The notes below the pieces were generated by a model, which was not told the DNA's origin, did no database searches, and was given only the letters and a program-made list of their open reading frames with translations. 64,000 nt of DNA from positions 13,392 through 77,391 of the forward strand of contig JAPLVH010000006.1 in NCBI GenBank assembly GCA_026397205.1. The letters run 5' to 3'. A program made the position numbers and the translations under genes. Of the stretch, positions 3,109 through 21,673 are shown piece after piece (the stretch's first letter is position 1; each line of letters starts with the position of its first letter). This DNA comes from Candidatus Berkelbacteria bacterium (GTDB taxonomy: Bacteria > Patescibacteriota > UBA1384 > XYA2-FULL-43-10 > CAINNR01).

Positions 3109-3267
3109 GCTCTAAATTCTAAATCCTAAGCTCTAAACAAATAAAACCAATGTTAAAAATTTCAAATAAATCCAAAGCTAAAACCGGAAAATTTTTATTT
3201 GACATTATTTGATTTTCATTTGAGTTTTGCATTTATTTGTTTAGAATTTAGAGCTTAGAGTTTAGTG
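3109..3267. repeat. Inverted tandem-heptamer arrays with an ~85-nt central region in the mreB-mreC spacer. Same architecture as the heptamer-array mini-elements elsewhere in the window.
   Basis: Left arm 3109-3145: 'gctctaa attctaa atcctaa gctctaa acaaataaa', four tandem heptamers NYTCTAA. Right arm 3232-3267: 'tttatttg ttagaat ttagagc ttagagt ttagtg'. The central region contains 'atttgacattatttg...gcatttattt', a motif that also occurs at 25.66, 25.80 and 54.93 kb. Confidence 0.6.
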
Positions 3268-4077
3268 TTTTTCATTATGTCCCCAAAACCCAACTCCTCA
3301 ATTTGTATATTAATCATCCTCGTCCTGACGATCTTTTTTCTCATCCCCTCGACTTTGAATCGCAAAGTTTCCGCCGGCATTTCCAGTTTTTTTCGACCGG
3401 TTTCCCGTTCGCTAGTTCACGCTGGCAAAAAAATTGCCAGCGGATTTTCCTTTATTTCGGAAATTTCCGACCTCCGGTCAAAAAATAATCAGCTGACCGC
3501 CGACTTAATCGCCGCCAAAGTTTACAACTCGAAATTGCAGGAATCAGAGTCAGAAAATGCCGGCCTATTAAAACAGCTCGATTATAAAAACGATAATCAA
3601 AATCAAAATCTGGTTCTGGCCGAGGTTGTCGAGCTCGATCCGACAAATTTTTATGACACAATTTCGATTGATCGCGGTACTGCTGACGGAGTTAAGCCGG
3701 GAATGGCCGTCGTCTCTCTCGGGGTTCTCGTTGGTAAAATTGACCAGGTTTTCCCAACTTCGGCAAAGGTGATTTTGATTACCGGCAAAGATTCGATCGT
3801 TCAGGTGATGCTCGGCGAGTCGAGGACAACCGGAATTCTGCGTGGCGGGATCTCCGGCATGACGCTGGAGGACATTCCGATTGATACTCCGGTTGCCGAC
3901 AACGAAAATATTATTACCTCCGGCCTTGGCGGCTTTCTGCCGAAGGGAATTTTTGTCGGCAATGCCGACAAGGAGATTTCCGGCAAATCGGACATTTTCA
4001 AAACACTAAAAGTCATTTCACCGATTGATTTTTCCAAGTTGGAAAGGGTTTTTGTGGTCATAGAAGGAACGACATAA
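3265..4077 (+). CDS. mreC: Rod shape-determining protein MreC. The tool start is GTG at 3265; the ATG at 3277 is also possible.
   Basis: N-terminal TM helix, coiled-coil segment, C-terminal beta domains with 'GMAVVSLGVLVGKIDQV...VILITGKDS' typical of MreC. Position between mreB and mreD. Confidence 0.75.
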   Translation: MFFIMSPKPNSSICILIILVLTIFFLIPSTLNRKVSAGISSFFRPVSRSLVHAGKKIASGFSFISEISDLRSKNNQLTADLIAAKVYNSKLQESESENAGLLKQLDYKNDNQNQNLVLAEVVELDPTNFYDTISIDRGTADGVKPGMAVVSLGVLVGKIDQVFPTSAKVILITGKDSIVQVMLGESRTTGILRGGISGMTLEDIPIDTPVADNENIITSGLGGFLPKGIFVGNADKEISGKSDIFKTLKVISPIDFSKLERVFVVIEGTT

Positions 4078-4087
4078 CTACAAGTTT

Positions 4088-4109
4088 CTTAAGTGACTTA
4101 AGTGACTTA
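4088..4109. repeat. Operon-junction palindrome CTTAAGTGACTTAAG (two overlapping copies) 6 nt upstream of the mreD ATG.
   Basis: 'cttaagtgacttaagtgactta'. No Shine-Dalgarno between it and the ATG at 4115. The same palindrome recurs at 10.87, 13.90, 25.29 and 58.07 kb. Confidence 0.6.
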
Positions 4110-4114
4110 TAATT

Positions 4115-4618
4115 ATGTATCCATTTTTATTTTTCCTTGCCATCTTTTCCACACTACTCCAAACAACTTTGCTGCCATCGCTTTCAATTTACGGCGGAGT
4201 TTTTGAACTTTCACTGATCCTAGCATTGCTACTAATTTTCGGCGGCAATTTCCGCCAAGCGGCATTTTTTTCTTTGGCATCGGCACTTTTTTTGGCCCTT
4301 TTTTCCGGCGAAAGTTTCGGGATATTTTTACTGCCAATAATCGTTGTACTTGCCTGTCTCTATCTTTTTCACTACCGGCGAATCATCACCGGCCCAAGCA
4401 TTTATCTTTCAATCCCCTTTTTTTTCTTTGCTGTTGCCGTCGCCGAGATTGTTGAAATGCTCCTAGCAAAGCAATCGTCGCTGTCGTCGCTCCGACAAAT
4501 CGTCGCCTCCGGAGTTATTTCAACGGTTCTTGGCAGCATTCTCTATTACTTTCAGCGAAAAATCCAGCGATATTTGAATCCGCAAGTCGAACCGATTAGA
4601 GCAATTAATAGGAGCTAG
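4115..4618 (+). CDS. mreD: Rod shape-determining protein MreD (polytopic membrane protein)
   Basis: 167 aa, about five hydrophobic helices. Located between mreC and PBP2 as in the canonical mreBCD-mrdA arrangement. Confidence 0.55.
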   Translation: MYPFLFFLAIFSTLLQTTLLPSLSIYGGVFELSLILALLLIFGGNFRQAAFFSLASALFLALFSGESFGIFLLPIIVVLACLYLFHYRRIITGPSIYLSIPFFFFAVAVAEIVEMLLAKQSSLSSLRQIVASGVISTVLGSILYYFQRKIQRYLNPQVEPIRAINRS

Positions 4619-4620
4619 CA

Positions 4621-6552
4621 ATGGATTTTTTGGGCAACTTTTCCCGTCTTCCGGGCGACAGAAAAAAGCGCCAAGTCGAAGCAAGCGATGACGCTGATTT
4701 TCAATATCAAGATCTGACGCTTGAAGCCCAGGCAAAAATTTCTGATGAAGAAAATCAGCGAAGGCCGTTTCCGGTTTTGAAACTGATAATTTTCCTTCTT
4801 TTCGCTCTGCTTTTGACCCGGATTTTTTATCTTCAGGTTGTCGGCGCCGAAAAAAATCTCAATTTGGCCGTGGGAAACAGCGTTCGCCCGCGTGCGATAA
4901 TCTCCGGCCGTGGCGTCATCAGTGATGTAAACGGAGTTTGGCTGGCGCGCGATGTCCCGAGTTTTGTCCTTGGCGTTTATCCCTCCGACCTGCCGAAAAA
5001 AACTTCCGACCGCGAAGCCGAATACCAGAAGCTGGCGGCTTTGTCCGGCGTTTCCGCCGACGAGATTCGCCGTCGGGTTGATGCCTCCGGACTAACCTCA
5101 ATTCAATTGGAGATTATCAAGCCCGACCTTGGGCGCGAGGAGTCGCTGATTTTACAGGAGTCAACTTCCGGCATGCCGGGCGTTACCGTCTCCGCTCAAT
5201 CAATGCGCCAATATAAAAACGACTCCGGTTTGGCGGAAATTTTGGGCTACACCGGGCTGATTTCCACCGACGAACTTTCGACCGACCCCAATTATCTGAT
5301 GAACGAATACACCGGCAAGGCCGGACTGGAAAAAAGTTATCAGGGTGATTTGCGCGGGACACCGGGAATCGAAAAAGTCGAGGTTAATTCTCACGGCAAA
5401 GTTGCCCAAACTTTGAGCGATTCGTCAAACAAACTTCCAGTTGCCGGGAATAATTTGACTCTAAATATTGATTACAACTTGCAAAAAGTTATGTCCGACC
5501 AGCTGGCGGCCGGCATCGCCGGCTCGGGCACCGGCTCAACCGCCGGCACCGTTGTCGCGATGAATCCGCAAACCGGCGCTGTTTTGGGTATGGTGTCGCT
5601 CCCAAGTTATGACAATAATATCTTTGCTGGCAAAGTTGATTCAAGTGAATATCAGAAACTTTTAGCTGACCCAAACTTTCCGCTCCTAAATCGGGCAACA
5701 ATGGGAATTTATCCTTCGGGCTCAATAATTAAAATCGTTATGGCCGCCGCCGGCATTGACGCCGGCGTCATCACGCCATCAACAGCGATCGAAACGCCGG
5801 CGGAAATTGACATCGGCGATTACAAATTTCCCGACTGGAAATATCACACCGGCCTGACCGATGTCGAGCGGGCAATCGCCGAATCGAATGATATTTTTTT
5901 CTACGCCGTCGCCGGCGGTTATGACAAAATCAAAGGACTCGGCATTAGATTGATTGATAACTATCTCTCGCTTTTTGGTTTCGGCGAGAAAACCGGCATT
6001 GATCTGCCATCGGAGGCCGCCGGCTTGGTGCCGACGCCGGAGTGGAAGGAAAAAGTTCGCGGCGAACCGTGGTATCTCGGCGACAGCTACCACCTCGGCA
6101 TCGGCCAGGGCGACTTTTTGATCACGCCACTGCAAATGGTTCGGGCGGTTTGCGCCATCGCCAACGGCGGAAAATTAGTTGTGCCAGAGTTAGTAAAAAA
6201 TATCACCGACCAGAGCGAAAAAATTGTCCAAACGATGTCGCCAAAAACCCTGCGACAAAATTTTGTTTCGGCCGAAGCGATTGCAACATCGCAAGCCGGA
6301 ATGCGGCAAGCAGTGACTTCGGCATCCGGCTCCGGCCGACTTTTACAGAATTTACCGGTAACTTCGGCGGCAAAAACCGGCACTGCTCAATTTATGAACA
6401 ACCAAAAAGAGCACGCTTGGTTTGAGGCCTACGCGCCATACGAAAATCCGCAAATTGCCATTGTTGTGATGATTGAAGGCGGCGGCGAAGGTTATACCGC
6501 CGCCGGCCCTGTCGCTGATAATATTTTGCAGTACTATTTTTCCCAAAGGTAA
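4621..6552 (+). CDS. mrdA: Penicillin-binding protein 2 (peptidoglycan D,D-transpeptidase MrdA)
   Basis: N-terminal TM anchor; transpeptidase motifs SxxK ('SGSIIK'), SxN-like and 'KTGTAQ'. AGGAG RBS 7 nt before the ATG. Confidence 0.85.
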   Translation: MDFLGNFSRLPGDRKKRQVEASDDADFQYQDLTLEAQAKISDEENQRRPFPVLKLIIFLLFALLLTRIFYLQVVGAEKNLNLAVGNSVRPRAIISGRGVISDVNGVWLARDVPSFVLGVYPSDLPKKTSDREAEYQKLAALSGVSADEIRRRVDASGLTSIQLEIIKPDLGREESLILQESTSGMPGVTVSAQSMRQYKNDSGLAEILGYTGLISTDELSTDPNYLMNEYTGKAGLEKSYQGDLRGTPGIEKVEVNSHGKVAQTLSDSSNKLPVAGNNLTLNIDYNLQKVMSDQLAAGIAGSGTGSTAGTVVAMNPQTGAVLGMVSLPSYDNNIFAGKVDSSEYQKLLADPNFPLLNRATMGIYPSGSIIKIVMAAAGIDAGVITPSTAIETPAEIDIGDYKFPDWKYHTGLTDVERAIAESNDIFFYAVAGGYDKIKGLGIRLIDNYLSLFGFGEKTGIDLPSEAAGLVPTPEWKEKVRGEPWYLGDSYHLGIGQGDFLITPLQMVRAVCAIANGGKLVVPELVKNITDQSEKIVQTMSPKTLRQNFVSAEAIATSQAGMRQAVTSASGSGRLLQNLPVTSAAKTGTAQFMNNQKEHAWFEAYAPYENPQIAIVVMIEGGGEGYTAAGPVADNILQYYFSQR

Positions 6553-6558
6553 TTTTAT

Positions 6559-6601
6559 GTCATTGCGAGAAGTCAAGCAGTCGGCAAACGACGAAGCAAT
6601 C
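6559..6601. repeat. Partial copy of the GTCATTGCGAG...CGAAGCAATC palindromic repeat (left half only)
   Basis: 'gtcattgcgag-N22-cgaagcaatc'. Full copies are at 19084-19154 and 21602-21664. Confidence 0.5.
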
Positions 6602-6892
6602 TTGTTTTTGTCTGGCGGTTTTATTCCCTCCGACGCTCTGATCGGAATCCCAACATTCGCCGGCTGGCGAATCGTCGGGGCGTGTCAAAATCCATGTGCT
6701 TGCATTTTTTCCTTGACTTTTATTTCGCCATTTGATAAATTGATTTTGTTGTTCCAATCCGAAGGGAGCTGGTTGAAGATGCCGGCACGAAAAGTCAGAG
6801 TCAAAAAATAAAAGTCACCGGAGGATTCGACACCGAATTCGTTCAAGAACCGGCCAAAGGCCGAAGGTTCGTATCTTTGGCTAAAAATTCTA

Positions 6893-7087
6893 TTGGCGAT
6901 ATTGATTATTTCATTTGTTGTCGGAGTTTTGGCCGCGATTTATTATGCCGTGATTGCACCACAAAACGCGGCGAGAAATTTCCGTGAAAATCAAAAAACA
7001 ACTTCGAGTTTGTATACTCCCTCTCCGGCCGAAACTGGTCGGAATTTTTGTCTCAAATTTTGGCAAGAAAAACCGGGGAATTTTTAA
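6893..7087 (+). CDS. Possible small membrane protein (64 aa, TTG start). Weak call.
   Basis: One TM helix, 'ILIISFVVGVLAAIYYAVIA'. No ATG start. The stop lies inside a palindrome/terminator. Could be non-coding. Confidence 0.2.
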   Translation: MAILIISFVVGVLAAIYYAVIAPQNAARNFRENQKTTSSLYTPSPAETGRNFCLKFWQEKPGNF

Positions 7088-7180
7088 GCTCCAGCTTAAA
7101 AATTCCCCAAAATGCTTTTTATTTTCTGAATTTCGTGCTTATAATTCGGGAAAAATTAAGCTCCAGCTTATTTTTTCCCG
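7075..7180. repeat. Two tandem, near-identical 34-bp palindromes sharing the core TAAGCTCCAGCTTA. The first is followed by a T-rich tract and may act as a plus-strand terminator.
   Basis: 7075-7108 'ggggaatttttaagctCCagcttaaaaattcccc' is a perfect 16+2+16 palindrome. 7147-7180 'cgggaaaaattaagctCCagcttattttttcccg' has one mismatch. Confidence 0.6.
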
Positions 7181-7198
7181 AAAACAAATTCCAGAAAA

Positions 7199-7228
7199 AA
7201 AATCAAGCCCGGGATTTGGGCTTGTGGG
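7199..7228 (-). terminator. Rho-independent terminator of the minus-strand small-protein gene
   Basis: Minus-strand reading is 'caagcccaaatcccgggcttg' + TTTTTTTT. The stop codon lies at the stem base. Confidence 0.6.
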
Positions 7229-7394
7229 TTTGGGATTTTCGCGTTTTTGGTTTTGAATCCGGATCTGGATGCGTCATTGCGGAACGAATTTGAGTCATTC
7301 GAGCAATTGCTGATTCGTCAAGTTTCATTGCGTCTGAAGGAATTCTTCTGCCAAGGGGAATAACAATAACGGGACCGTCATTTTTCTTCCTCAT
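7203..7394 (-). CDS. Small basic protein (63 aa), unknown function. A complete mono-cistronic unit with promoter, strong RBS and terminator.
   Basis: GGAGGTG 8 nt upstream of the ATG. Divergent promoter TTGAAA-17-TATACT. Terminator at the stop. C-terminus is Lys/Arg/Pro-rich. Confidence 0.5.
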   Translation of the reverse strand: MRKKNDGPVIVIPLGRRIPSDAMKLDESAIARMTQIRSAMTHPDPDSKPKTRKSQTHKPKSRA

Positions 7395-7417
7395 TTCGGT
7401 GACACCTCCATAATTTC

Positions 7418-7446
7418 AGTATAACCTCTTGACAAGATTTTTTCAA
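7418..7446 (-). promoter_or_regulatory. Sigma70-type promoter for the small basic protein gene (minus strand)
   Basis: On the minus strand: TTGAAA (7441-7446), a 17-nt spacer, TATACT (7418-7423). Confidence 0.5.
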
Positions 7447-7457
7447 TCGGCTAAAAT
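7429..7457 (+). promoter_or_regulatory. Sigma70-type promoter for greA. Its -35 abuts the -35 of the divergent minus-strand promoter.
   Basis: TTGACA (7429-7434), a 17-nt spacer, TAAAAT (7452-7457). GGGAG RBS before the greA ATG at 7550. Confidence 0.6.
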
Positions 7458-7549
7458 TACAATATAGTTTAAAAATTAAAAACTGGGCTAGGACATATCC
7501 TCTAAAAAGGGATTTATTTTTTTAGAGCCCGATCAATTAGGGAGAAATT

Positions 7550-8011
7550 ATGATCGAGGAAATTATTCTGACGGCTAGTGGTCGAGCAAAACTTGAAGCC
7601 GAACTAACGAAACTCAAAAATGAGGATTTGAAGGAAGTTGCCGAGCAAATTAAATCCGCCCGGGAACTTGGTGATCTTTCGGAAAATGCCGATTATCATC
7701 AGGCGCGTGAAAAGCAGGCATTTGTTGCCGGCCGAATTGAGGAGATCGAGTGGAAACTTTCGCACGCCCGAATGGCAGAAAAATCAAACGGTTGTAATGT
7801 CGTCGCCATCGGTTGCCGAGCGGTTTTGAAGTCAAGTGACGGAAACGAAAATTATGAAATTGTTGGCGCCACTGAAGCCGATCCAGCAGTTGGAAAAATC
7901 TCCGTTTCCTCGCCGATTGCCAAAGCGATTCTGGGCCACAAAGTCGGCGACAAAGTTGCGGCCGAAACTCCGGTCGGCGAAATTAAATATGAAATTAAAT
8001 CAATAGAATAA
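7550..8011 (+). CDS. greA: Transcription elongation factor GreA
   Basis: 'DLSENADYHQAREKQAFVAGRIEEIE' matches the GreA coiled-coil consensus. 153 aa; C-terminal FKBP-like domain. Confidence 0.9.
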   Translation: MIEEIILTASGRAKLEAELTKLKNEDLKEVAEQIKSARELGDLSENADYHQAREKQAFVAGRIEEIEWKLSHARMAEKSNGCNVVAIGCRAVLKSSDGNENYEIVGATEADPAVGKISVSSPIAKAILGHKVGDKVAAETPVGEIKYEIKSIE

Positions 8012-8296: not shown

Positions 8297-9550
8297 TCAG
8301 CTTTCGATTATTCCGCCGCCCAAAACTTCGTCCCACTTCGCCCGACCAAAGCGGGCTTCGCGGGACGGGCTTCGCCCGTAAATCACCGCCGACTGGCCGG
8401 GTGTAATTGCTCGTTGTGGCTCGGCGAATATGACTTTGATGTTGTCGCTAGATCCTTCGACAAGCTCAGGATGACTTGTGATTTTACAAGTCACTTCCGA
8501 ATGCCGGTATCTGATTTTAACTGAAAGATTTGAATTCTGAATTATGAATTCTGAATTGTGAATAAAATTTAAACTATTGACAATCATTTCTTTTTTGAAC
8601 ACTTCATTGTTGCCGCCAACAATCAACTGATTTTTTTCTTGATTAAATCCAACAACATAAAGCGGTTTTTTATCTTTGATTTTTGATTTGTCATTTTGAT
8701 TTTTGATTTTTGATTTTTGATCTATTAACTTTCTCTGTCCAATCGTATAATTTAGCAAACCTTGATGCTGACCGACAACATTGCCTTCGATATCGACAAT
8801 TTCGCCCGGCAGAAAAAACTTTTCTGGCAAATACCGGCGCAAAAAGTTGCGGTAATCTTTGTCGGCAAAAAAACAGATTTCCTGACTCTCCGGCTTCTCT
8901 TTGACTGGCAAATTATATTTGATCGCCAATTTTCGGACATCGATTTTTTTCATCTCGCCTAGCGGAAATAAAATTTTCGCCAACTGATTTTGATTCAGCC
9001 GGTAAAGCATATATGACTGGTCTTTGGTTTCGTCAACGCCTTTCAACAAATGATATTCCTTTTTACTTTTTGATTTATCATTTTGATCTTTGATTTTTGA
9101 TCTTTGATTTATTCTGGCATAGTGTCCCGTCGCCAATTTTTCGCAACCGATTGCCAATGCTTTTTTCAGAAGCAAATCAAATTTTATTTTTTCGTTACAG
9201 ATAATGCAGGGATTTGGCGTCCGCAAATTTTGATATTCGGTCAAAAAATAATCTACGACAGCTTTTTTGAACTCGCTTTTGGCGTTTATAACATAAAATG
9301 GAATGTTTAATTTCGCCGCTACCGCCCGGGCATCTTCCAGCGCCTGATAATCGCAACAGTGGTTGTCGCGCCGACAAGTTTTGCCATCCGGGAATAAGGG
9401 ACTTGTCCCGCGAAGTCCGCCTTGGGCAGACGAAGTGGGATCGCTCCACAATTTCAAAAACAGCCCGACCAAGTCGTGCCCGTAATCCTTTAGGATTTTT
9501 GCCGCCACGGCGGAATCAACACCACCGGACAGGGCAATTGCTAATTTCAT
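8297..9550 (-). CDS. mnmA: tRNA-specific 2-thiouridylase MnmA, carrying two in-frame heptamer-repeat insertions
   Basis: 'MKLAIALSGGVDSAVAA' PP-loop, catalytic Cys motifs, 417 aa. Inserted peptides 'KSKIKDQNDKSKSKKEY' and 'DQKSKIKNQNDKSKIKDKK' are encoded by (TGATTTT)n tracts. Confidence 0.85.
   Translation of the reverse strand: MKLAIALSGGVDSAVAAKILKDYGHDLVGLFLKLWSDPTSSAQGGLRGTSPLFPDGKTCRRDNHCCDYQALEDARAVAAKLNIPFYVINAKSEFKKAVVDYFLTEYQNLRTPNPCIICNEKIKFDLLLKKALAIGCEKLATGHYARINQRSKIKDQNDKSKSKKEYHLLKGVDETKDQSYMLYRLNQNQLAKILFPLGEMKKIDVRKLAIKYNLPVKEKPESQEICFFADKDYRNFLRRYLPEKFFLPGEIVDIEGNVVGQHQGLLNYTIGQRKLIDQKSKIKNQNDKSKIKDKKPLYVVGFNQEKNQLIVGGNNEVFKKEMIVNSLNFIHNSEFIIQNSNLSVKIRYRHSEVTCKITSHPELVEGSSDNIKVIFAEPQRAITPGQSAVIYGRSPSREARFGRAKWDEVLGGGIIES
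8670..8725. repeat. (TGATTTT)n heptamer tract, in frame inside mnmA
   Basis: 'tatctttgatttttgatttgtcattttgatttttgatttttgatttttgatc'. Confidence 0.7.
9061..9112. repeat. (TGATTTT)n heptamer tract, in frame inside mnmA
   Basis: 'ttttactttttgatttatcattttgatctttgatttttgatctttgattt'. Confidence 0.7.
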
Positions 9551-10443: not shown

Positions 10444-10865
10444 TTTTTAAGTATCTTAAGTTGCTTAATTTTCTTCCGATAATCTTTTATCGCTTTCCTC
10501 ACCCCCTCTTCGGCCAAAATTGAGCAGTGGTATTTTGCCGGCGGGAATTTGCCCATCTCGGCGGCGATCTGTTTTGATGTTAGCTTTAACGCTTCTTCAA
10601 GTGATTTACCTTTCACTAGTTCGGTCGCAATAGACGACGAAGCAATCGCCGCCCCACAGCCCAAGGTTTGGAATTTGATGTCGGAAATGTATTCTTCTGG
10701 CTTACCGCTTACTAGCTTACGACTTACGACTTTTATAAAAATTCGCATAACATCCCCGCAATTCGGATTGCCGACAGTTCCGACGCCGTCGGCACCTTTA
10801 ATCTCACCGAGATTTCTCGGGTTTCGAAAATGCTCCATTATTTTTTCACTATATAAATTTTCCAT
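10440..10865 (-). CDS. iscU: Fe-S cluster assembly scaffold IscU/NifU-like, with an internal heptamer-derived insertion
   Basis: Three conserved Cys: 'NPNCGD', 'LGCGAA', 'YHCS'. Insert 'KVVSRKLVSGKP' is encoded by a (GCTTAC)-type tract at 10701-10730. Confidence 0.8.
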   Translation of the reverse strand: MENLYSEKIMEHFRNPRNLGEIKGADGVGTVGNPNCGDVMRIFIKVVSRKLVSGKPEEYISDIKFQTLGCGAAIASSSIATELVKGKSLEEALKLTSKQIAAEMGKFPPAKYHCSILAEEGVRKAIKDYRKKIKQLKILKK

Positions 10866-13902: not shown

Positions 13903-13934
13903 CCTAAGTTGCTTAGGTGACTTAAGTGACTTAG
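13903..13934. repeat. Operon-junction palindrome (two copies, CCTAAGTTGCTTAGG + TGACTTAAGTGACTTAG) between the upstream gene stop and the tatD start
   Basis: 'cctaagttgcttaggtgacttaagtgacttag'. Confidence 0.6.
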
Positions 13935-19083: not shown

Positions 19084-19154
19084 GTCATTGCGAGCCATTG
19101 AGCAAAGCGAAAGGCGAAGCAATCCTTTAAGATTGCTTCGTTCCTCGCAATGAC
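19084..19154. repeat. Long nested palindromic repeat GTCATTGCGAG...GAAGCAATC-ctttaa-GATTGCTTC...CTCGCAATGAC (copy 1)
   Basis: 11-bp outer stem and 9-bp inner stem. Lies downstream of the Nramp-like gene. A second copy at 21602-21664 brackets a two-gene minus-strand unit. Confidence 0.65.
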
Positions 19155-21601: not shown

Positions 21602-21664
21602 GTCATTGCGAGCCATCAGCGGAGGCGCGGCAAACTTTTTGGATTGCTTCGTTCCTCGCAATGA
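21602..21664. repeat. Copy 2 of the GTCATTGCGAG...CTCGCAATGAC palindromic repeat
   Basis: 'gtcattgcgagccatcagcggaggcgcggcaaactttttggattgcttcgttcctcgcaatgac'. Confidence 0.65.
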
Positions 21665-21673
21665 CGAAATTCC

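What the first reader, a model, noticed from the sequence alone, without database searches (positions are those of the whole stretch)
6553..7549. Dense regulatory and structured 1-kb gap after mrdA: partial palindromic repeat, twin 34-bp palindromes, back-to-back divergent promoters and a complete 63-aa basic-protein gene
No rodA follows mrdA. The 1-kb gap instead contains four things.
- A partial GTCATTGCGAG...CGAAGCAATC repeat.
- Two tandem 34-bp palindromes with identical cores. The first is GGGGAATTTTTAAGCT-CC-AGCTTAAAAATTCCCC, a perfect palindrome, and the second differs at one position. These could be plus-strand terminators or a protein-binding operator pair.
- A minus-strand unit with its own promoter (TTGAAA-17-TATACT), a GGAGGTG RBS, a 63-aa Lys/Arg/Pro-rich ORF and an intrinsic terminator overlapping its stop.
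- The greA promoter (TTGACA-17-TAAAAT). Its -35 lies 6 bp from the divergent promoter's -35, so the two RNA polymerase sites must compete or be co-regulated.
Basis: partly seen in the sequence, partly recalled or inferred. Interest (0 to 1): 0.5.

Follow-up and report, generated by a model that had tools for sequence, protein, structure and literature searches.

The report
Small-gene insertion between mrdA and greA
The 1-kb gap is extra DNA found only in this Berkelbacteria-like genome, in a spacer that is normally about 130 bp; it carries a real small basic-protein gene of a very rare, uncharacterised family and two unique long hairpins, and is otherwise ordinary.

Summary
The context changes the reading.

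- **Synteny:** in 29 CPR loci greA follows mrdA on the same strand, median spacer 130 bp. A missing rodA is therefore normal.
- **Extra DNA:** about 0.86 kb (6553 to about 7415) is absent from the closest relatives.
- **greA promoter and leader:** TTGACA-17-TAAAAT and a short leader hairpin plus U-tract recur in all 9 Berkelbacteria-like loci.
- **63-aa ORF:** it is a genuine protein gene. It has homologues in three other lineages, with third codon positions saturated and positions 1+2 63-74% identical. Two of those lineages also place it next to greA. The family is tiny (4 clusters in 5.8 billion proteins) and matches no known family.
- **ORF promoter:** its 10/12 promoter interleaves with the greA promoter and occurs only in this genome.
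- **P1/P2:** they differ by four compensatory pair changes and have no other copy anywhere searched. They sit between a plus-strand terminator-like site (7024-7053) and the ORF's own terminator. Only P1, read on the minus strand, has a T-tract. Their function is unresolved.
a plus-strand unit, namely a promoter-like site, an RBS and a 102-codon membrane-protein ORF broken by an in-frame TAA.

Interest is modest.

The parts
6559..6602 (+). Left half only of a dispersed palindromic (REP/MITE-like) repeat, GTCATTGCGAG...CGAAGCAATC
   Evidence: Full copies are at 19084-19154 and 21602-21665 and in L007 at 10499-10603. The gap copy lacks the right arm and has no significant fold.
6627..6681 (.). 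Short element with two small hairpins (TCCGA..TCGGA and ATTCGCC-GGCT-GGCGAAT), shared with a relative
   Evidence: 86% identical over 56 nt to L007 256-308 on the opposite strand, where it lies inside a 588-aa ORF. The stems are kept although the sequence differs. It is single-copy in the window.
6713..6741 (+). Promoter-like site TTGACT-17-TAAATT with TG before the -10 (9/12)
   Evidence: It is a weak match, and sites at this score are common by chance. It is positioned 38 nt upstream of the ATG at 6779.
6779..7087 (+). 102-codon ORF for a small single-pass membrane protein, interrupted by an in-frame TAA at 6809-6811. RBS GGGAG at 6764-6768. Probable pseudogene; the alternative is a 64-aa TTG-start ORF at 6893-7087.
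   Evidence: Translation MPARKVRVKK*KSPED...LWLKILLAILIISFVVGVLAAIYYAVIAP...GNF*. Codon-usage score 0.055 is ambiguous. No homologue in any fetched locus and only sub-threshold family hits. Its stop lies inside the left arm of P1.
7024..7053 (+). Terminator-like hairpin TCCGGCCGAAACTGGTCGGA followed by ATTTTTGTCT on the plus strand
   Evidence: 8 pairs, 5 of them G-C. It resembles the genome's usual terminators.
7075..7108 (.). P1: perfect 16+2+16 palindrome. Read on the minus strand (7110-7073) it is followed by TTTTTCTT.
7145..7182 (.). P2: 18+2+18 palindrome with one mismatch. No T-tract on either strand. It is the tip of a longer composite hairpin spanning about 7113-7205.
   Evidence: arms 7118-7136 and 7184-7202. 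Four compensatory pair changes relative to P1. The covariance model finds no other copy.
7194..7224 (-). Intrinsic terminator of the small gene: CAAGCCC-AAATCCC-GGGCTTG followed by A+T8. It overlaps the last codons and the TGA stop.
7203..7394 (-). 63-aa basic protein gene (pI 11.0) of a rare uncharacterised family. The conserved 34-aa core is IVIPLGRRIPSDAMKLDESAIARMTQIRSAMTHP.
   Evidence: Homologues in L009/L088-L090, L087 (P0003) and L085/L086 (P0002). Coding-type substitution pattern. The identical gene is called on an independent Logan contig.
7403..7409 (-). Shine-Dalgarno GGAGGTG, 8 nt before the ATG of the small gene
   Evidence: The homologue in L087 has GAGGAGGTG in the same place.
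7418..7446 (-). Promoter-like TTGAAA-17-TATACT (10/12) for the small gene, interleaved with the greA promoter
   Evidence: There is no equivalent site scoring at least 10/12 at this place in 8 related loci.
7429..7457 (+). greA promoter TTGACA-17-TAAAAT (11/12)
   Evidence: TTGACA-17-TA[GA][TA]AT (TTGACT in L006) is conserved in 9 of 9 Berkelbacteria-like loci.
7497..7523 (+). greA leader hairpin (AUCCU/GGGAU) followed by UUAUUUUUUU: a terminator- or attenuator-like element
   Evidence: The hairpin plus U-tract is at the same place in all 9 related loci. The stem is short and covariation is weak.

Best explanation
**What it is.** The mrdA-greA spacer is normally about 60-230 bp in this clade. 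In this genome it has been expanded by about 0.86 kb of lineage-specific DNA (6553 to about 7415).

**Ancestral part.** Only the last ~120 bp of the gap is ancestral. It holds the greA promoter and a leader with a short hairpin plus U-tract. That element probably attenuates greA transcription, as greA leaders do in other bacteria.

**Inserted part.** It contains:
- Debris of dispersed palindromic repeats.
- A plus-strand small membrane-protein ORF that carries a nonsense codon. It is most likely a decaying gene.
- A functional, self-contained minus-strand gene for a 63-aa, very basic protein of a rare uncharacterised family.

**How the small gene is expressed.** It is read from a sigma-70-type promoter whose -35 lies inside the spacer of the greA promoter, and vice versa. 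The predicted start sites are about 53 bp apart. One RNA polymerase bound in either direction should therefore exclude the other, which couples expression of greA's own promoter and of the small gene negatively. Transcription of the small gene stops at a canonical hairpin plus U8 that overlaps its stop codon.

**The twin palindromes.** They lie in the ~140-bp zone between this terminator and a plus-strand terminator-like site. They most likely arose by local duplication of one hairpin. P1, the only one with a T-tract (on the minus strand), could act as a back-up terminator that keeps antisense transcription out of mrdA. P2 has no assignable role.

**Shown:** the anatomy; the absence of this DNA in relatives; the coding status and homologues of the small gene; conservation of the greA promoter and leader.

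**Inferred:** promoter activity; polymerase competition; terminator function; pseudogene status of the plus-strand ORF; any function of the protein. My best guess for the protein is a small dimeric nucleic-acid-binding protein, based on pI 10-12 and on one homologue that carries two tandem copies of the module.
For: Extra DNA specific to this genome:
- greA follows mrdA on the same strand in 29 CPR loci, median spacer 130 bp. The closest relatives have 117-228 bp.
- blastn of the gap finds nothing in relatives except the 56-nt element in L007.

greA promoter and leader:
- Both are conserved in 9 of 9 related loci.
- greA-leader termination is documented in E. coli (PMC2836576, PMC6829880) and was predicted across phyla (PMC2965389).

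The small gene is real:
- Homologues were found by tblastn (E = 1.8e-6 to 4.5e-8 within the fetched loci), by phmmer over 1.84 billion representatives (E = 2e-4 and 1e-3), and by profile search (1e-18 to 1e-27).
- In the 34-codon core, positions 1+2 are 63-74% identical and position 3 is 18-44% identical. Between 10 of 18 and 16 of 20 identical residues use different codons.
- A strong SD, a promoter-like site and a canonical terminator are present.
- Homologues in L009 and L087 also have an SD and a terminator.

The small gene looks acquired:
- Its codon usage is atypical for the window (bottom 0.4% of real-gene chunks).
- One homologue sits in a 61% GC genome next to restriction-modification-type genes (ResIII helicase and N6_N4 methyltransferase domains).

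P1 and P2:
- Four compensatory pair changes and one mismatch.
- Strong predicted folds on both strands (z = -7.2 and -6.1).
- A T-tract only after P1 on the minus strand.
- No other copy in the window or in 14 related loci, nor in viral contigs, phages or plasmids.
- They are flanked by terminator-like sites at 7024-7053 (plus) and 7224-7194 (minus).
Against: - No transcription data exist for this uncultivated organism. All promoter and terminator calls are consensus matches, and 10/12 promoter-like sites occur about 14 times by chance in the window.
- The closest available relative is only 74% identical in MrdA. The time and mode of the insertion are therefore unknown, and no target-site duplication or mobility gene was found.
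- The small gene lies next to greA in three lineages. That could mean common descent and a functional link rather than acquisition.
- The 17-18-bp A/T-rich stems of P1 and P2 are unlike the genome's usual 7-11-bp G+C-rich terminators. If the flanking terminators work, P1 and P2 would rarely be transcribed, which argues against an RNA-level role.
- The plus-strand ORF has no homologue and ambiguous codon usage. Other 80-100-codon ORFs that are surely spurious overlap the same region.
- In the window's own leader, the minimum-free-energy fold sequesters the U-tract in a different helix.
Confidence: 0.6

Rival explanations
1. P1 and P2 are a pair of operators, or another DNA-level binding or recombination site, for a dimeric protein. 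That protein could be the adjacent 63-aa basic protein. Together they would form a small self-contained regulatory or partition-like module.
For: - Both palindromes are long, share an identical 12-bp core, and their centres lie 72 bp apart, about 7 helical turns.
- They lie between convergent terminator-like sites, where little RNA is expected.
- The protein is very basic.
- One homologue (P0003) carries two tandem modules, as expected for a unit that works as a dimer.
- Long inverted repeats also lie within 150 bp of the homologues in L087 (38-nt arms, CACAGAT repeats) and L085 (23-nt arms).
Against: - The half-sites of P1 and P2 differ at 4 of 16 positions while each keeps its own self-complementarity. 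That pattern is expected for selection on, or templated repair of, a hairpin, not for one protein reading one half-site.
- The inverted repeats near the homologues share no sequence with P1/P2, and L009 has none.
- 34-38-bp perfect palindromes are far longer than usual operators.
- The protein matches no DNA-binding family, and its predicted structure is one helix at low confidence.
Confidence: 0.12
2. P1 and P2 are functionless relics. One possibility is a local hairpin duplication. Another is the two ends of a decayed miniature palindromic element that arrived with the inserted DNA. Their symmetry would then be maintained by intrastrand templated repair rather than by selection.
For: - They are unique to this locus and lie inside DNA that relatives lack.
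- They sit next to other repeat debris (6559-6602 and 6627-6681).
- P2 is embedded in a longer imperfect inverted repeat spanning 7113-7205, as in MITE-like elements.
- Only one of four strand/hairpin combinations has a T-tract.
Against: - No second copy of the putative element exists in 64 kb, in related loci, or in viral, phage or plasmid collections. The repeat-family criterion is therefore not met.
- P1 is perfect over 34 bp, which implies a recent origin or ongoing maintenance.
Confidence: 0.3
3. The small gene is not an incidental passenger. It would be a functional partner of GreA, for example a modulator of RNA polymerase or of Gre-factor action, kept next to greA by selection and co-regulated through the shared promoter region.
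For: - In all three Berkelbacteria-like lineages that have the family, the gene lies within about 350 bp of greA. It is divergent and upstream in the window, and convergent and downstream in L009/L088 and L087.
- In the window the two promoters interleave.
Against: - Seven other related loci (L005-L008 and L091-L093) have no copy within the DNA fetched around greA, up to 5-6 kb on each side.
- The fourth lineage (L085/L086) has the gene next to restriction-modification-type genes, with no greA in 8.5 kb.
- greA marks the end of a conserved synteny block whose flanks vary. Adjacency may therefore reflect a permissive insertion site plus shared descent, supported by the similar terminators in L009 and L087.
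Confidence: 0.12
4. The 63-aa ORF is spurious, and the minus-strand unit is a small non-coding RNA or nothing at all.
For: - Codon usage is indistinguishable from shadow ORFs.
- No known family matches.
- The window copy is the most divergent member, with PSDAM in place of PSGAF.
Against: - The amino-acid sequence is conserved across four lineages with saturated third positions, and blastn finds no nucleotide similarity to the homologues.
- A strong SD lies at the right distance.
- A gene caller called the same 63-aa product independently on a Logan contig.
Confidence: 0.08

Closest known systems
Overlapping divergent ('back-to-back') sigma-70 promoters, and the symmetric bidirectional promoters of Warman et al. 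(bioRxiv 10.1101/2020.01.31.928960; PMC12825309)
   Same: Two promoter-like sites lie on opposite strands and share the same ~30 bp of DNA. One polymerase binding event should therefore exclude the other. That competition is discussed for E. coli bidirectional promoters (abstract of PMC12825309).
   Different: In the described bidirectional class the -10 elements coincide through sequence symmetry, and as I recall the starts lie about 18 bp apart (from memory, not checked in the paper). Here the -35 hexamers cross into each other's spacers and the predicted starts are about 53 bp apart. No activity data exist for this locus.
greA leader attenuator / GraL of E. coli (PMC2836576, PMC6829880) and predicted greA-leaders in other phyla (PMC2965389)
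   Same: A terminator-like hairpin plus U-tract lies between the greA promoter and its start codon, and is conserved in 9 of 9 Berkelbacteria-like loci.
   Different: The stem is very short (4-5 pairs). No antiterminator was identified and there is no sequence similarity to the enterobacterial leader. The window's version is the weakest. Function is untested.
Rho-independent (intrinsic) terminators, including convergent or bidirectional arrangements
   Same: The 7224-7204 hairpin plus U8 and the 7024-7043 hairpin plus T5 look canonical. P1 on the minus strand has a stem followed by a T-tract.
   Different: P1 and P2 have 16-18-bp A/T-rich stems with 2-4-nt loops, unlike the 7-11-bp G+C-rich stems elsewhere in this window. 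P2 has no T-tract on either strand.
REP/BIME- or MITE-like dispersed palindromic repeats
   Same: The GTCATTGCGAG...CTCGCAATGAC element has several copies in the window and in a relative, and is palindromic and intergenic.
   Different: The gap holds only half a copy. P1 and P2 themselves are not dispersed, because no other copy exists.
Small basic nucleic-acid-binding proteins with a strand-then-helix module (ribbon-helix-helix, AbrB/MazE-like)
   Same: Similar size, high pI, a short hydrophobic strand-like motif (VVIKLG) followed by a helix, and tandem duplication of the module in one member.
   Different: No HMM match to any such family, even at E-values up to 1-5. No PDB sequence match. 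AlphaFold gives only one helix at pLDDT about 70 and pTM 0.2-0.3. The resemblance is a lead only.

Membership tests
Intrinsic terminator | G+C-containing stem-loop followed immediately by a U/T-tract on the transcribed strand | tested here: met
   Small-gene terminator at 7224-7204 with ATTTTTTTT: 7 pairs, 5 of them G-C. The plus-strand site at 7024-7043 with ATTTTTGT also meets it.
Intrinsic terminator (P1, P2) | T-tract within 0-2 nt of the stem on the strand in question | tested here: inconclusive
   P1 on the minus strand meets it (GG then TTTTTCTT). P1 on the plus strand does not, and P2 does not on either strand. The stems are atypically long and A/T-rich compared with the genome's other sites.
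Sigma-70-type promoter (greA) | -35 and -10 hexamers at 16-18 bp spacing, conserved in orthologous position | tested here: met
   11/12 match. TTGACA-17-TA[GA][TA]AT (TTGACT in L006) occurs in 9 of 9 related loci.
Sigma-70-type promoter (small gene) | -35 and -10 hexamers at 16-18 bp spacing, suitably placed before the gene; activity | tested here: inconclusive
   10/12 match, with the -10 ending 24 nt before the ATG. Sites of this score occur about 14.5 times by chance in the window. Conservation cannot be tested, since homologues sit in different contexts. Activity is not testable here.
Symmetric bidirectional promoter (Warman type) | Coinciding -10 elements on opposite strands through sequence symmetry (start spacing of about 18 bp is recalled from memory, not checked) | tested here: not met
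   The -10 elements lie at 7452-7457 (plus) and 7423-7418 (minus), and the predicted starts are about 53 bp apart.
Dispersed palindromic repeat (REP/MITE-like) | Several similar copies in the genome | tested here: met
   This holds for the GTCATTGCGAG element: 6 matches against 1.2 expected, and full copies seen. It does not hold for P1/P2, which have no other copy.
CRISPR mini-array (P1-spacer-P2) | Near-identical direct repeats of 28-37 nt with unique spacers; cas genes or a leader nearby | tested here: not met
   The repeats are only 78% identical and fully palindromic. There are just two copies. No CRISPR RNA family was found in the window. cas genes were not searched for systematically.
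Known small-protein families (ribosome-associated or hibernation factors, RHH, AbrB, antitoxins, defence proteins) | Significant profile match | tested here: not met
   No hit in Pfam, NCBIfam, PHROGs or PADLOC, nor among PDB sequences, for the window protein, its homologues or their profile.
Protein-coding gene (63-aa ORF) | Amino-acid conservation exceeding nucleotide conservation; substitutions concentrated at third codon positions | tested here: met
   Positions 1+2 are 0.63-0.74 identical and position 3 is 0.18-0.44. dN is 0.29-0.61 with dS above 1 or saturated, for the comparisons among the window, L009, L085 and the first repeat of L087.
Known RNA families | Covariance-model match at or near the gathering score | tested here: not met
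   No Rfam hit at gathering score in the window. In 6500-7600 only generic hairpin matches appear, far below threshold.
greA leader attenuator | Terminator hairpin plus U-tract in the 5' leader, with an alternative antiterminator fold | tested here: inconclusive
   The hairpin plus U-tract is present in 9 of 9 loci. No antiterminator was identified, and covariation is weak (1 of 4 pairs).

The most novel reading that the evidence does not exclude
The 63-aa protein may represent a new family of small basic proteins: a module of about 36 aa, V-[VI]-I-x-L-G-K-R-x-P-S-G-A-F-R-L-[ST]-D-D-A-[LI]...Q-R-S-A-M-T-H-P, that can occur in tandem. Under this reading it is functionally tied to GreA or RNA polymerase in Berkelbacteria. 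It would be co-regulated with greA through interleaved promoters, and it might bind the adjacent long palindromes.
Probability: 0.12. Interest if true: 0.55.

Novelty: new member of a known kind. Interest (0 to 1): 0.3.

Why it matters
For annotation, the result corrects three things. The missing rodA is normal for this clade. The gap is extra DNA specific to this lineage. The small ORF should be kept as a real gene, even though its codon usage is atypical for this genome and it has no family. It also adds a documented case of a rare small-protein family: four clusters among 5.8 billion proteins. The family recurs beside greA in streamlined CPR genomes, where any retained accessory gene deserves attention. 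Finally, it gives a compact natural example of interleaved divergent promoters that could be tested in a reporter system. None of this overturns current knowledge.

Tried and rejected
RNA families:
- Rfam at gathering score on the whole window and on 8 relatives, and at permissive E-values on the gap, on L009 and on L005, gave nothing meaningful.
- No tRNA or tmRNA was found that could mark an integration site.

Homologues of the small protein:
- k-mer-seeded protein searches with the 63-aa protein alone, or with a 2-sequence profile, found only the protein itself.
- Scans of metagenome and viral contigs with the family profile found no further members.
- A scan of metagenome contigs with GreA gave only three more Berkelbacteria-like loci, none closer than 78%.
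- tblastn of a family member against plasmids found nothing. Against phages it gave one hit (E = 0.04) inside a 1171-aa ORF of a high-GC contig, which I rejected as chance.

DNA similarity of the gap:
- The gap DNA has no match in phages or plasmids.
- A degenerate P1/P2 pattern has no match in viral contigs.

Structure:
- AlphaFold on the 63-aa protein and on the two-module homologue gave pTM 0.27 and 0.21. These are too poor for a fold search, so none was run.

Decayed rodA:
- I considered whether the gap is a decayed rodA and rejected it. Close relatives have 117-228-bp spacers, and the long spacers in other CPR loci hold unrelated genes with no similarity to the gap.

Independent assemblies:
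- An exact-sequence look-up of MrdA and of the 64-aa ORF, meant to find independent assemblies covering the TAA at 6809, returned nothing.
- The only independent contig stops at 7164, the centre of P2. That is probably an assembler break at the palindrome.

Other readings of P1/P2:
- A CRISPR mini-array and IS200/IS605-type end hairpins were both considered and not supported.
Full report
**1. What is in the sequence**

The window comes from a Candidatus Berkelbacteria-like member of the Patescibacteria (CPR). MrdA is 74% identical to the best genome hit and about 70% identical to four others labelled Berkelbacteria.

The local gene order is:
- mreC, 3265-4077
- mreD, 4115-4618
- mrdA, 4621-6552 (TIGR03423, E = 1.5e-165)
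- a 997-bp gap
- greA, 7550-8011 (NCBIfam and Pfam GreA models)
- mnmA on the minus strand

Two corrections apply. P2 is one mismatch away from a perfect palindrome, but it differs from P1 at nine positions. Neither palindrome has a T-tract on the plus strand.

**2. The gap is extra DNA, and the missing rodA is normal**

Among the loci fetched with MrdA and GreA, 29 carry both genes, always on the same strand with greA downstream. The median spacer is 130 bp. The closest relatives have spacers of 117-228 bp (L006-L009, L087, L088, L092, L093).

In those relatives the mrdA stop is followed within about 10-100 bp by TTGACA-17-TAGTAT. A leader follows with the hairpin UUCCCGAUGGGGGA plus a U-tract, and then greA.

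The window keeps this ~120-bp module at 7429-7549. Everything from 6553 to about 7415 has no counterpart in any relative.

Spacers of 1 kb or more in more distant CPR loci contain unrelated genes. None is rodA and none resembles the gap.

One close relative, L005, has its own unrelated 1.25-kb expansion. It includes a 36-bp duplication of the mrdA 3' end. The spacer therefore tolerates insertions.

**3. The minus-strand small gene is real**

The 63-aa ORF has all the expected signals:
- An SD (GGAGGTG) 8 nt before the ATG.
- A 10/12 promoter-like site ending 24 nt upstream of the ATG.
- A canonical hairpin plus U8 that overlaps its stop codon.

Word-seeded searches found only the protein itself. 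More sensitive searches found homologues:
- tblastn against the fetched loci found a 44-aa ORF in L009.
- An exhaustive phmmer search of 1.84 billion representatives found P0002 (66 aa) and P0003 (85 aa).
- A profile search then scored all members at 1e-18 to 1e-28 and found no others among 5.8 billion proteins.

In the 34-codon core, first and second positions are 63-74% identical and third positions are 18-44% identical. Most identical residues use different codons. That is the signature of selection on a protein, and blastn sees no DNA similarity.

All members have pI 10.3-11.6. P0003 contains two tandem copies of the module.

No Pfam, NCBIfam, PHROG, PADLOC or PDB-sequence match exists. 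AlphaFold predicts little more than one helix, at low confidence. Codon usage is atypical for this genome.

**4. Where the homologues sit**

- In L009/L088-L090 and in L087 the gene lies just downstream of greA and converges on it, at the end of the mreBCD-mrdA-greA block.
- In the window it lies upstream of greA and diverges from it.
- In L085/L086, a 61% GC organism, it sits next to restriction-modification-type genes (ResIII helicase and N6_N4 methyltransferase domains), with no greA nearby.
- Seven other Berkelbacteria-like loci have no copy within the DNA fetched around greA, up to 5-6 kb on each side.

L009 and L087 share a similar terminator, GGGATYGGC...GCCAATCCC plus a T-run, which suggests common descent of those two loci.

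Adjacency to greA in three of four lineages is striking. It can be explained by descent plus the variable flanks of greA, so a functional link remains a minority reading.

**5. Promoters**

The greA promoter is supported by conservation in 9 of 9 loci. The minus-strand promoter occurs only in the window, where the small gene is.

The two sites interleave. The greA -35 (7429-7434) lies in the spacer of the minus promoter, and the minus -35 (7441-7446) lies in the greA spacer. The predicted starts are about 53 bp apart.

From general knowledge of RNA polymerase footprints (roughly -55 to +20), simultaneous occupancy is unlikely. Competition is therefore a reasonable but untested inference.

This is not the symmetric shared -10 class of bidirectional promoter (10.1101/2020.01.31.928960; PMC12825309).

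**6. The greA leader**

A short hairpin followed by a U-tract lies between the promoter and the start codon in all nine loci. The stems vary: UCCC/GGGG(G)A, UCCCC/GGGA, and AUCCU/GGGAU in the window.

This parallels the greA leader terminator that produces GraL in E. coli (PMC2836576, PMC6829880). It also parallels the greA-leader attenuators predicted in several phyla (PMC2965389).

The stem is only 4-5 pairs and covariation is weak, so this is a lead and not a demonstration.

**7. The twin palindromes**

P1 and P2 fold strongly on either strand (z = -7.2 and -6.1). P2 caps a longer composite hairpin spanning about 7113-7205.

Relative to P1, P2 has four double (compensatory) changes and one single change. 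Self-complementarity, rather than a fixed half-site sequence, is what has been kept.

A covariance model built from the two finds no further copy in the window or in 14 related loci. A degenerate pattern finds none in viral contigs.

The genome's usual terminator-like sites have 7-11-bp G+C-rich stems, so P1 and P2 are atypical. Only P1, read on the minus strand, is followed by a T-tract.

Both palindromes lie between a plus-strand terminator-like site (7024-7053) and the small gene's own terminator (7224-7194). If those two sites work, P1 and P2 are rarely transcribed.

I rank the readings as follows:
- A relic or local duplication with at most a back-up terminator role for P1: most likely.
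- A protein-binding site: possible.
- A plus-strand terminator: not supported.

**8. Other content of the insertion**

- 6559-6602 is the left half of a dispersed palindromic repeat that has full copies elsewhere in the window and in L007.
- 6627-6681 is a second short element with two small hairpins. It is 86% identical to a segment that lies inside a large ORF in L007.
It has a weak promoter-like site (6713-6741), GGGAG (6764-6768) and an ATG at 6779.
  - The ORF reads MPARKVRVKK, then an in-frame TAA (6809-6811), then 91 more codons.
  - Those codons encode a basic stretch, one transmembrane helix and a tail that ends inside P1.
  - The frame is unchanged across the stop, which fits a nonsense substitution in a once-intact 102-codon gene.
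  - Support is moderate only: codon usage is ambiguous and there are no homologues.

**9. Verdict**

The region is an ordinary product of genome flux, namely an insertion into a permissive spacer. It has two mildly interesting pieces:
- A genuine member of a very rare small basic-protein family that recurs beside greA.
- A unique pair of long hairpins of unknown role.

Nothing here requires a new kind of system.

Noticed in passing
L009 4622-4918 (minus strand) and L005 10313-10606: A ~300-nt element that does not look protein-coding is 72% identical between two Berkelbacteria genomes. It has a TTGAC promoter-like start and a GGGATCGGC...GCCGATCCC plus T7 terminator. It lies between the greA side and a divergent dinB-like gene. 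There is no Rfam match even at permissive E-values, and no copy in the window. It is a candidate unknown ncRNA.
   Followed up: partly
L005 6803-7360: A 36-bp duplication of the mrdA 3' end (encoding ..ILQYYFSQPH) flanks a ~520-bp insert. A 183-aa orphan ORF follows at 7379-7930. This is an independent expansion of the same mrdA-greA spacer in the closest relative.
   Followed up: partly
window 8297-9550 (mnmA, minus strand): MnmA carries Lys/Asn/Ser-rich inserts (SKIKDQNDKSKSKK and KSKIKNQNDKSKIKDKK). tblastn matches these at several other places in the window (about 11890, 18412, 20692, 24165, 25062). This looks like a dispersed in-frame repeat.
   Followed up: no
window 4090-4109 and 13914-13933: The nearly identical 20-mers TAAGTGACTTAAGTGACTTA and TAGGTGACTTAAGTGACTTA occur in two intergenic spots, one of them the mreC-mreD spacer. 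This could be a shared regulatory motif.
   Followed up: no
L087 442-524; L085 4134-4227: Long inverted repeats lie close to two homologues of the small protein. One has 38-nt arms with CACAGAT iterons and sits about 90 bp upstream of P0003. The other has 23-nt arms and sits about 115 bp downstream of P0002. Neither shares sequence with P1/P2.
   Followed up: partly
L001/L172 (Logan SRR20698651 contig), end corresponds to window 7164: The only independent assembly that covers the small gene stops exactly at the centre of P2. This is most likely a de Bruijn-graph break at the palindrome, so independent confirmation of P1/P2 and of the TAA at 6809 is lacking.
   Followed up: partly
window 7140-7145: A perfect TATAAT hexamer lies between P1 and P2 on the plus strand. 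It has only a poor -35 (TTTTAT at 17 bp). If active, transcription would start inside P2.
   Followed up: no
L005 10073-10270 (minus strand): In the position that the small basic protein occupies in L009 (downstream of the ncRNA-like element and before a similar terminator), L005 has an unrelated 65-aa ORF. This hints at a slot with exchangeable small genes.
   Followed up: no
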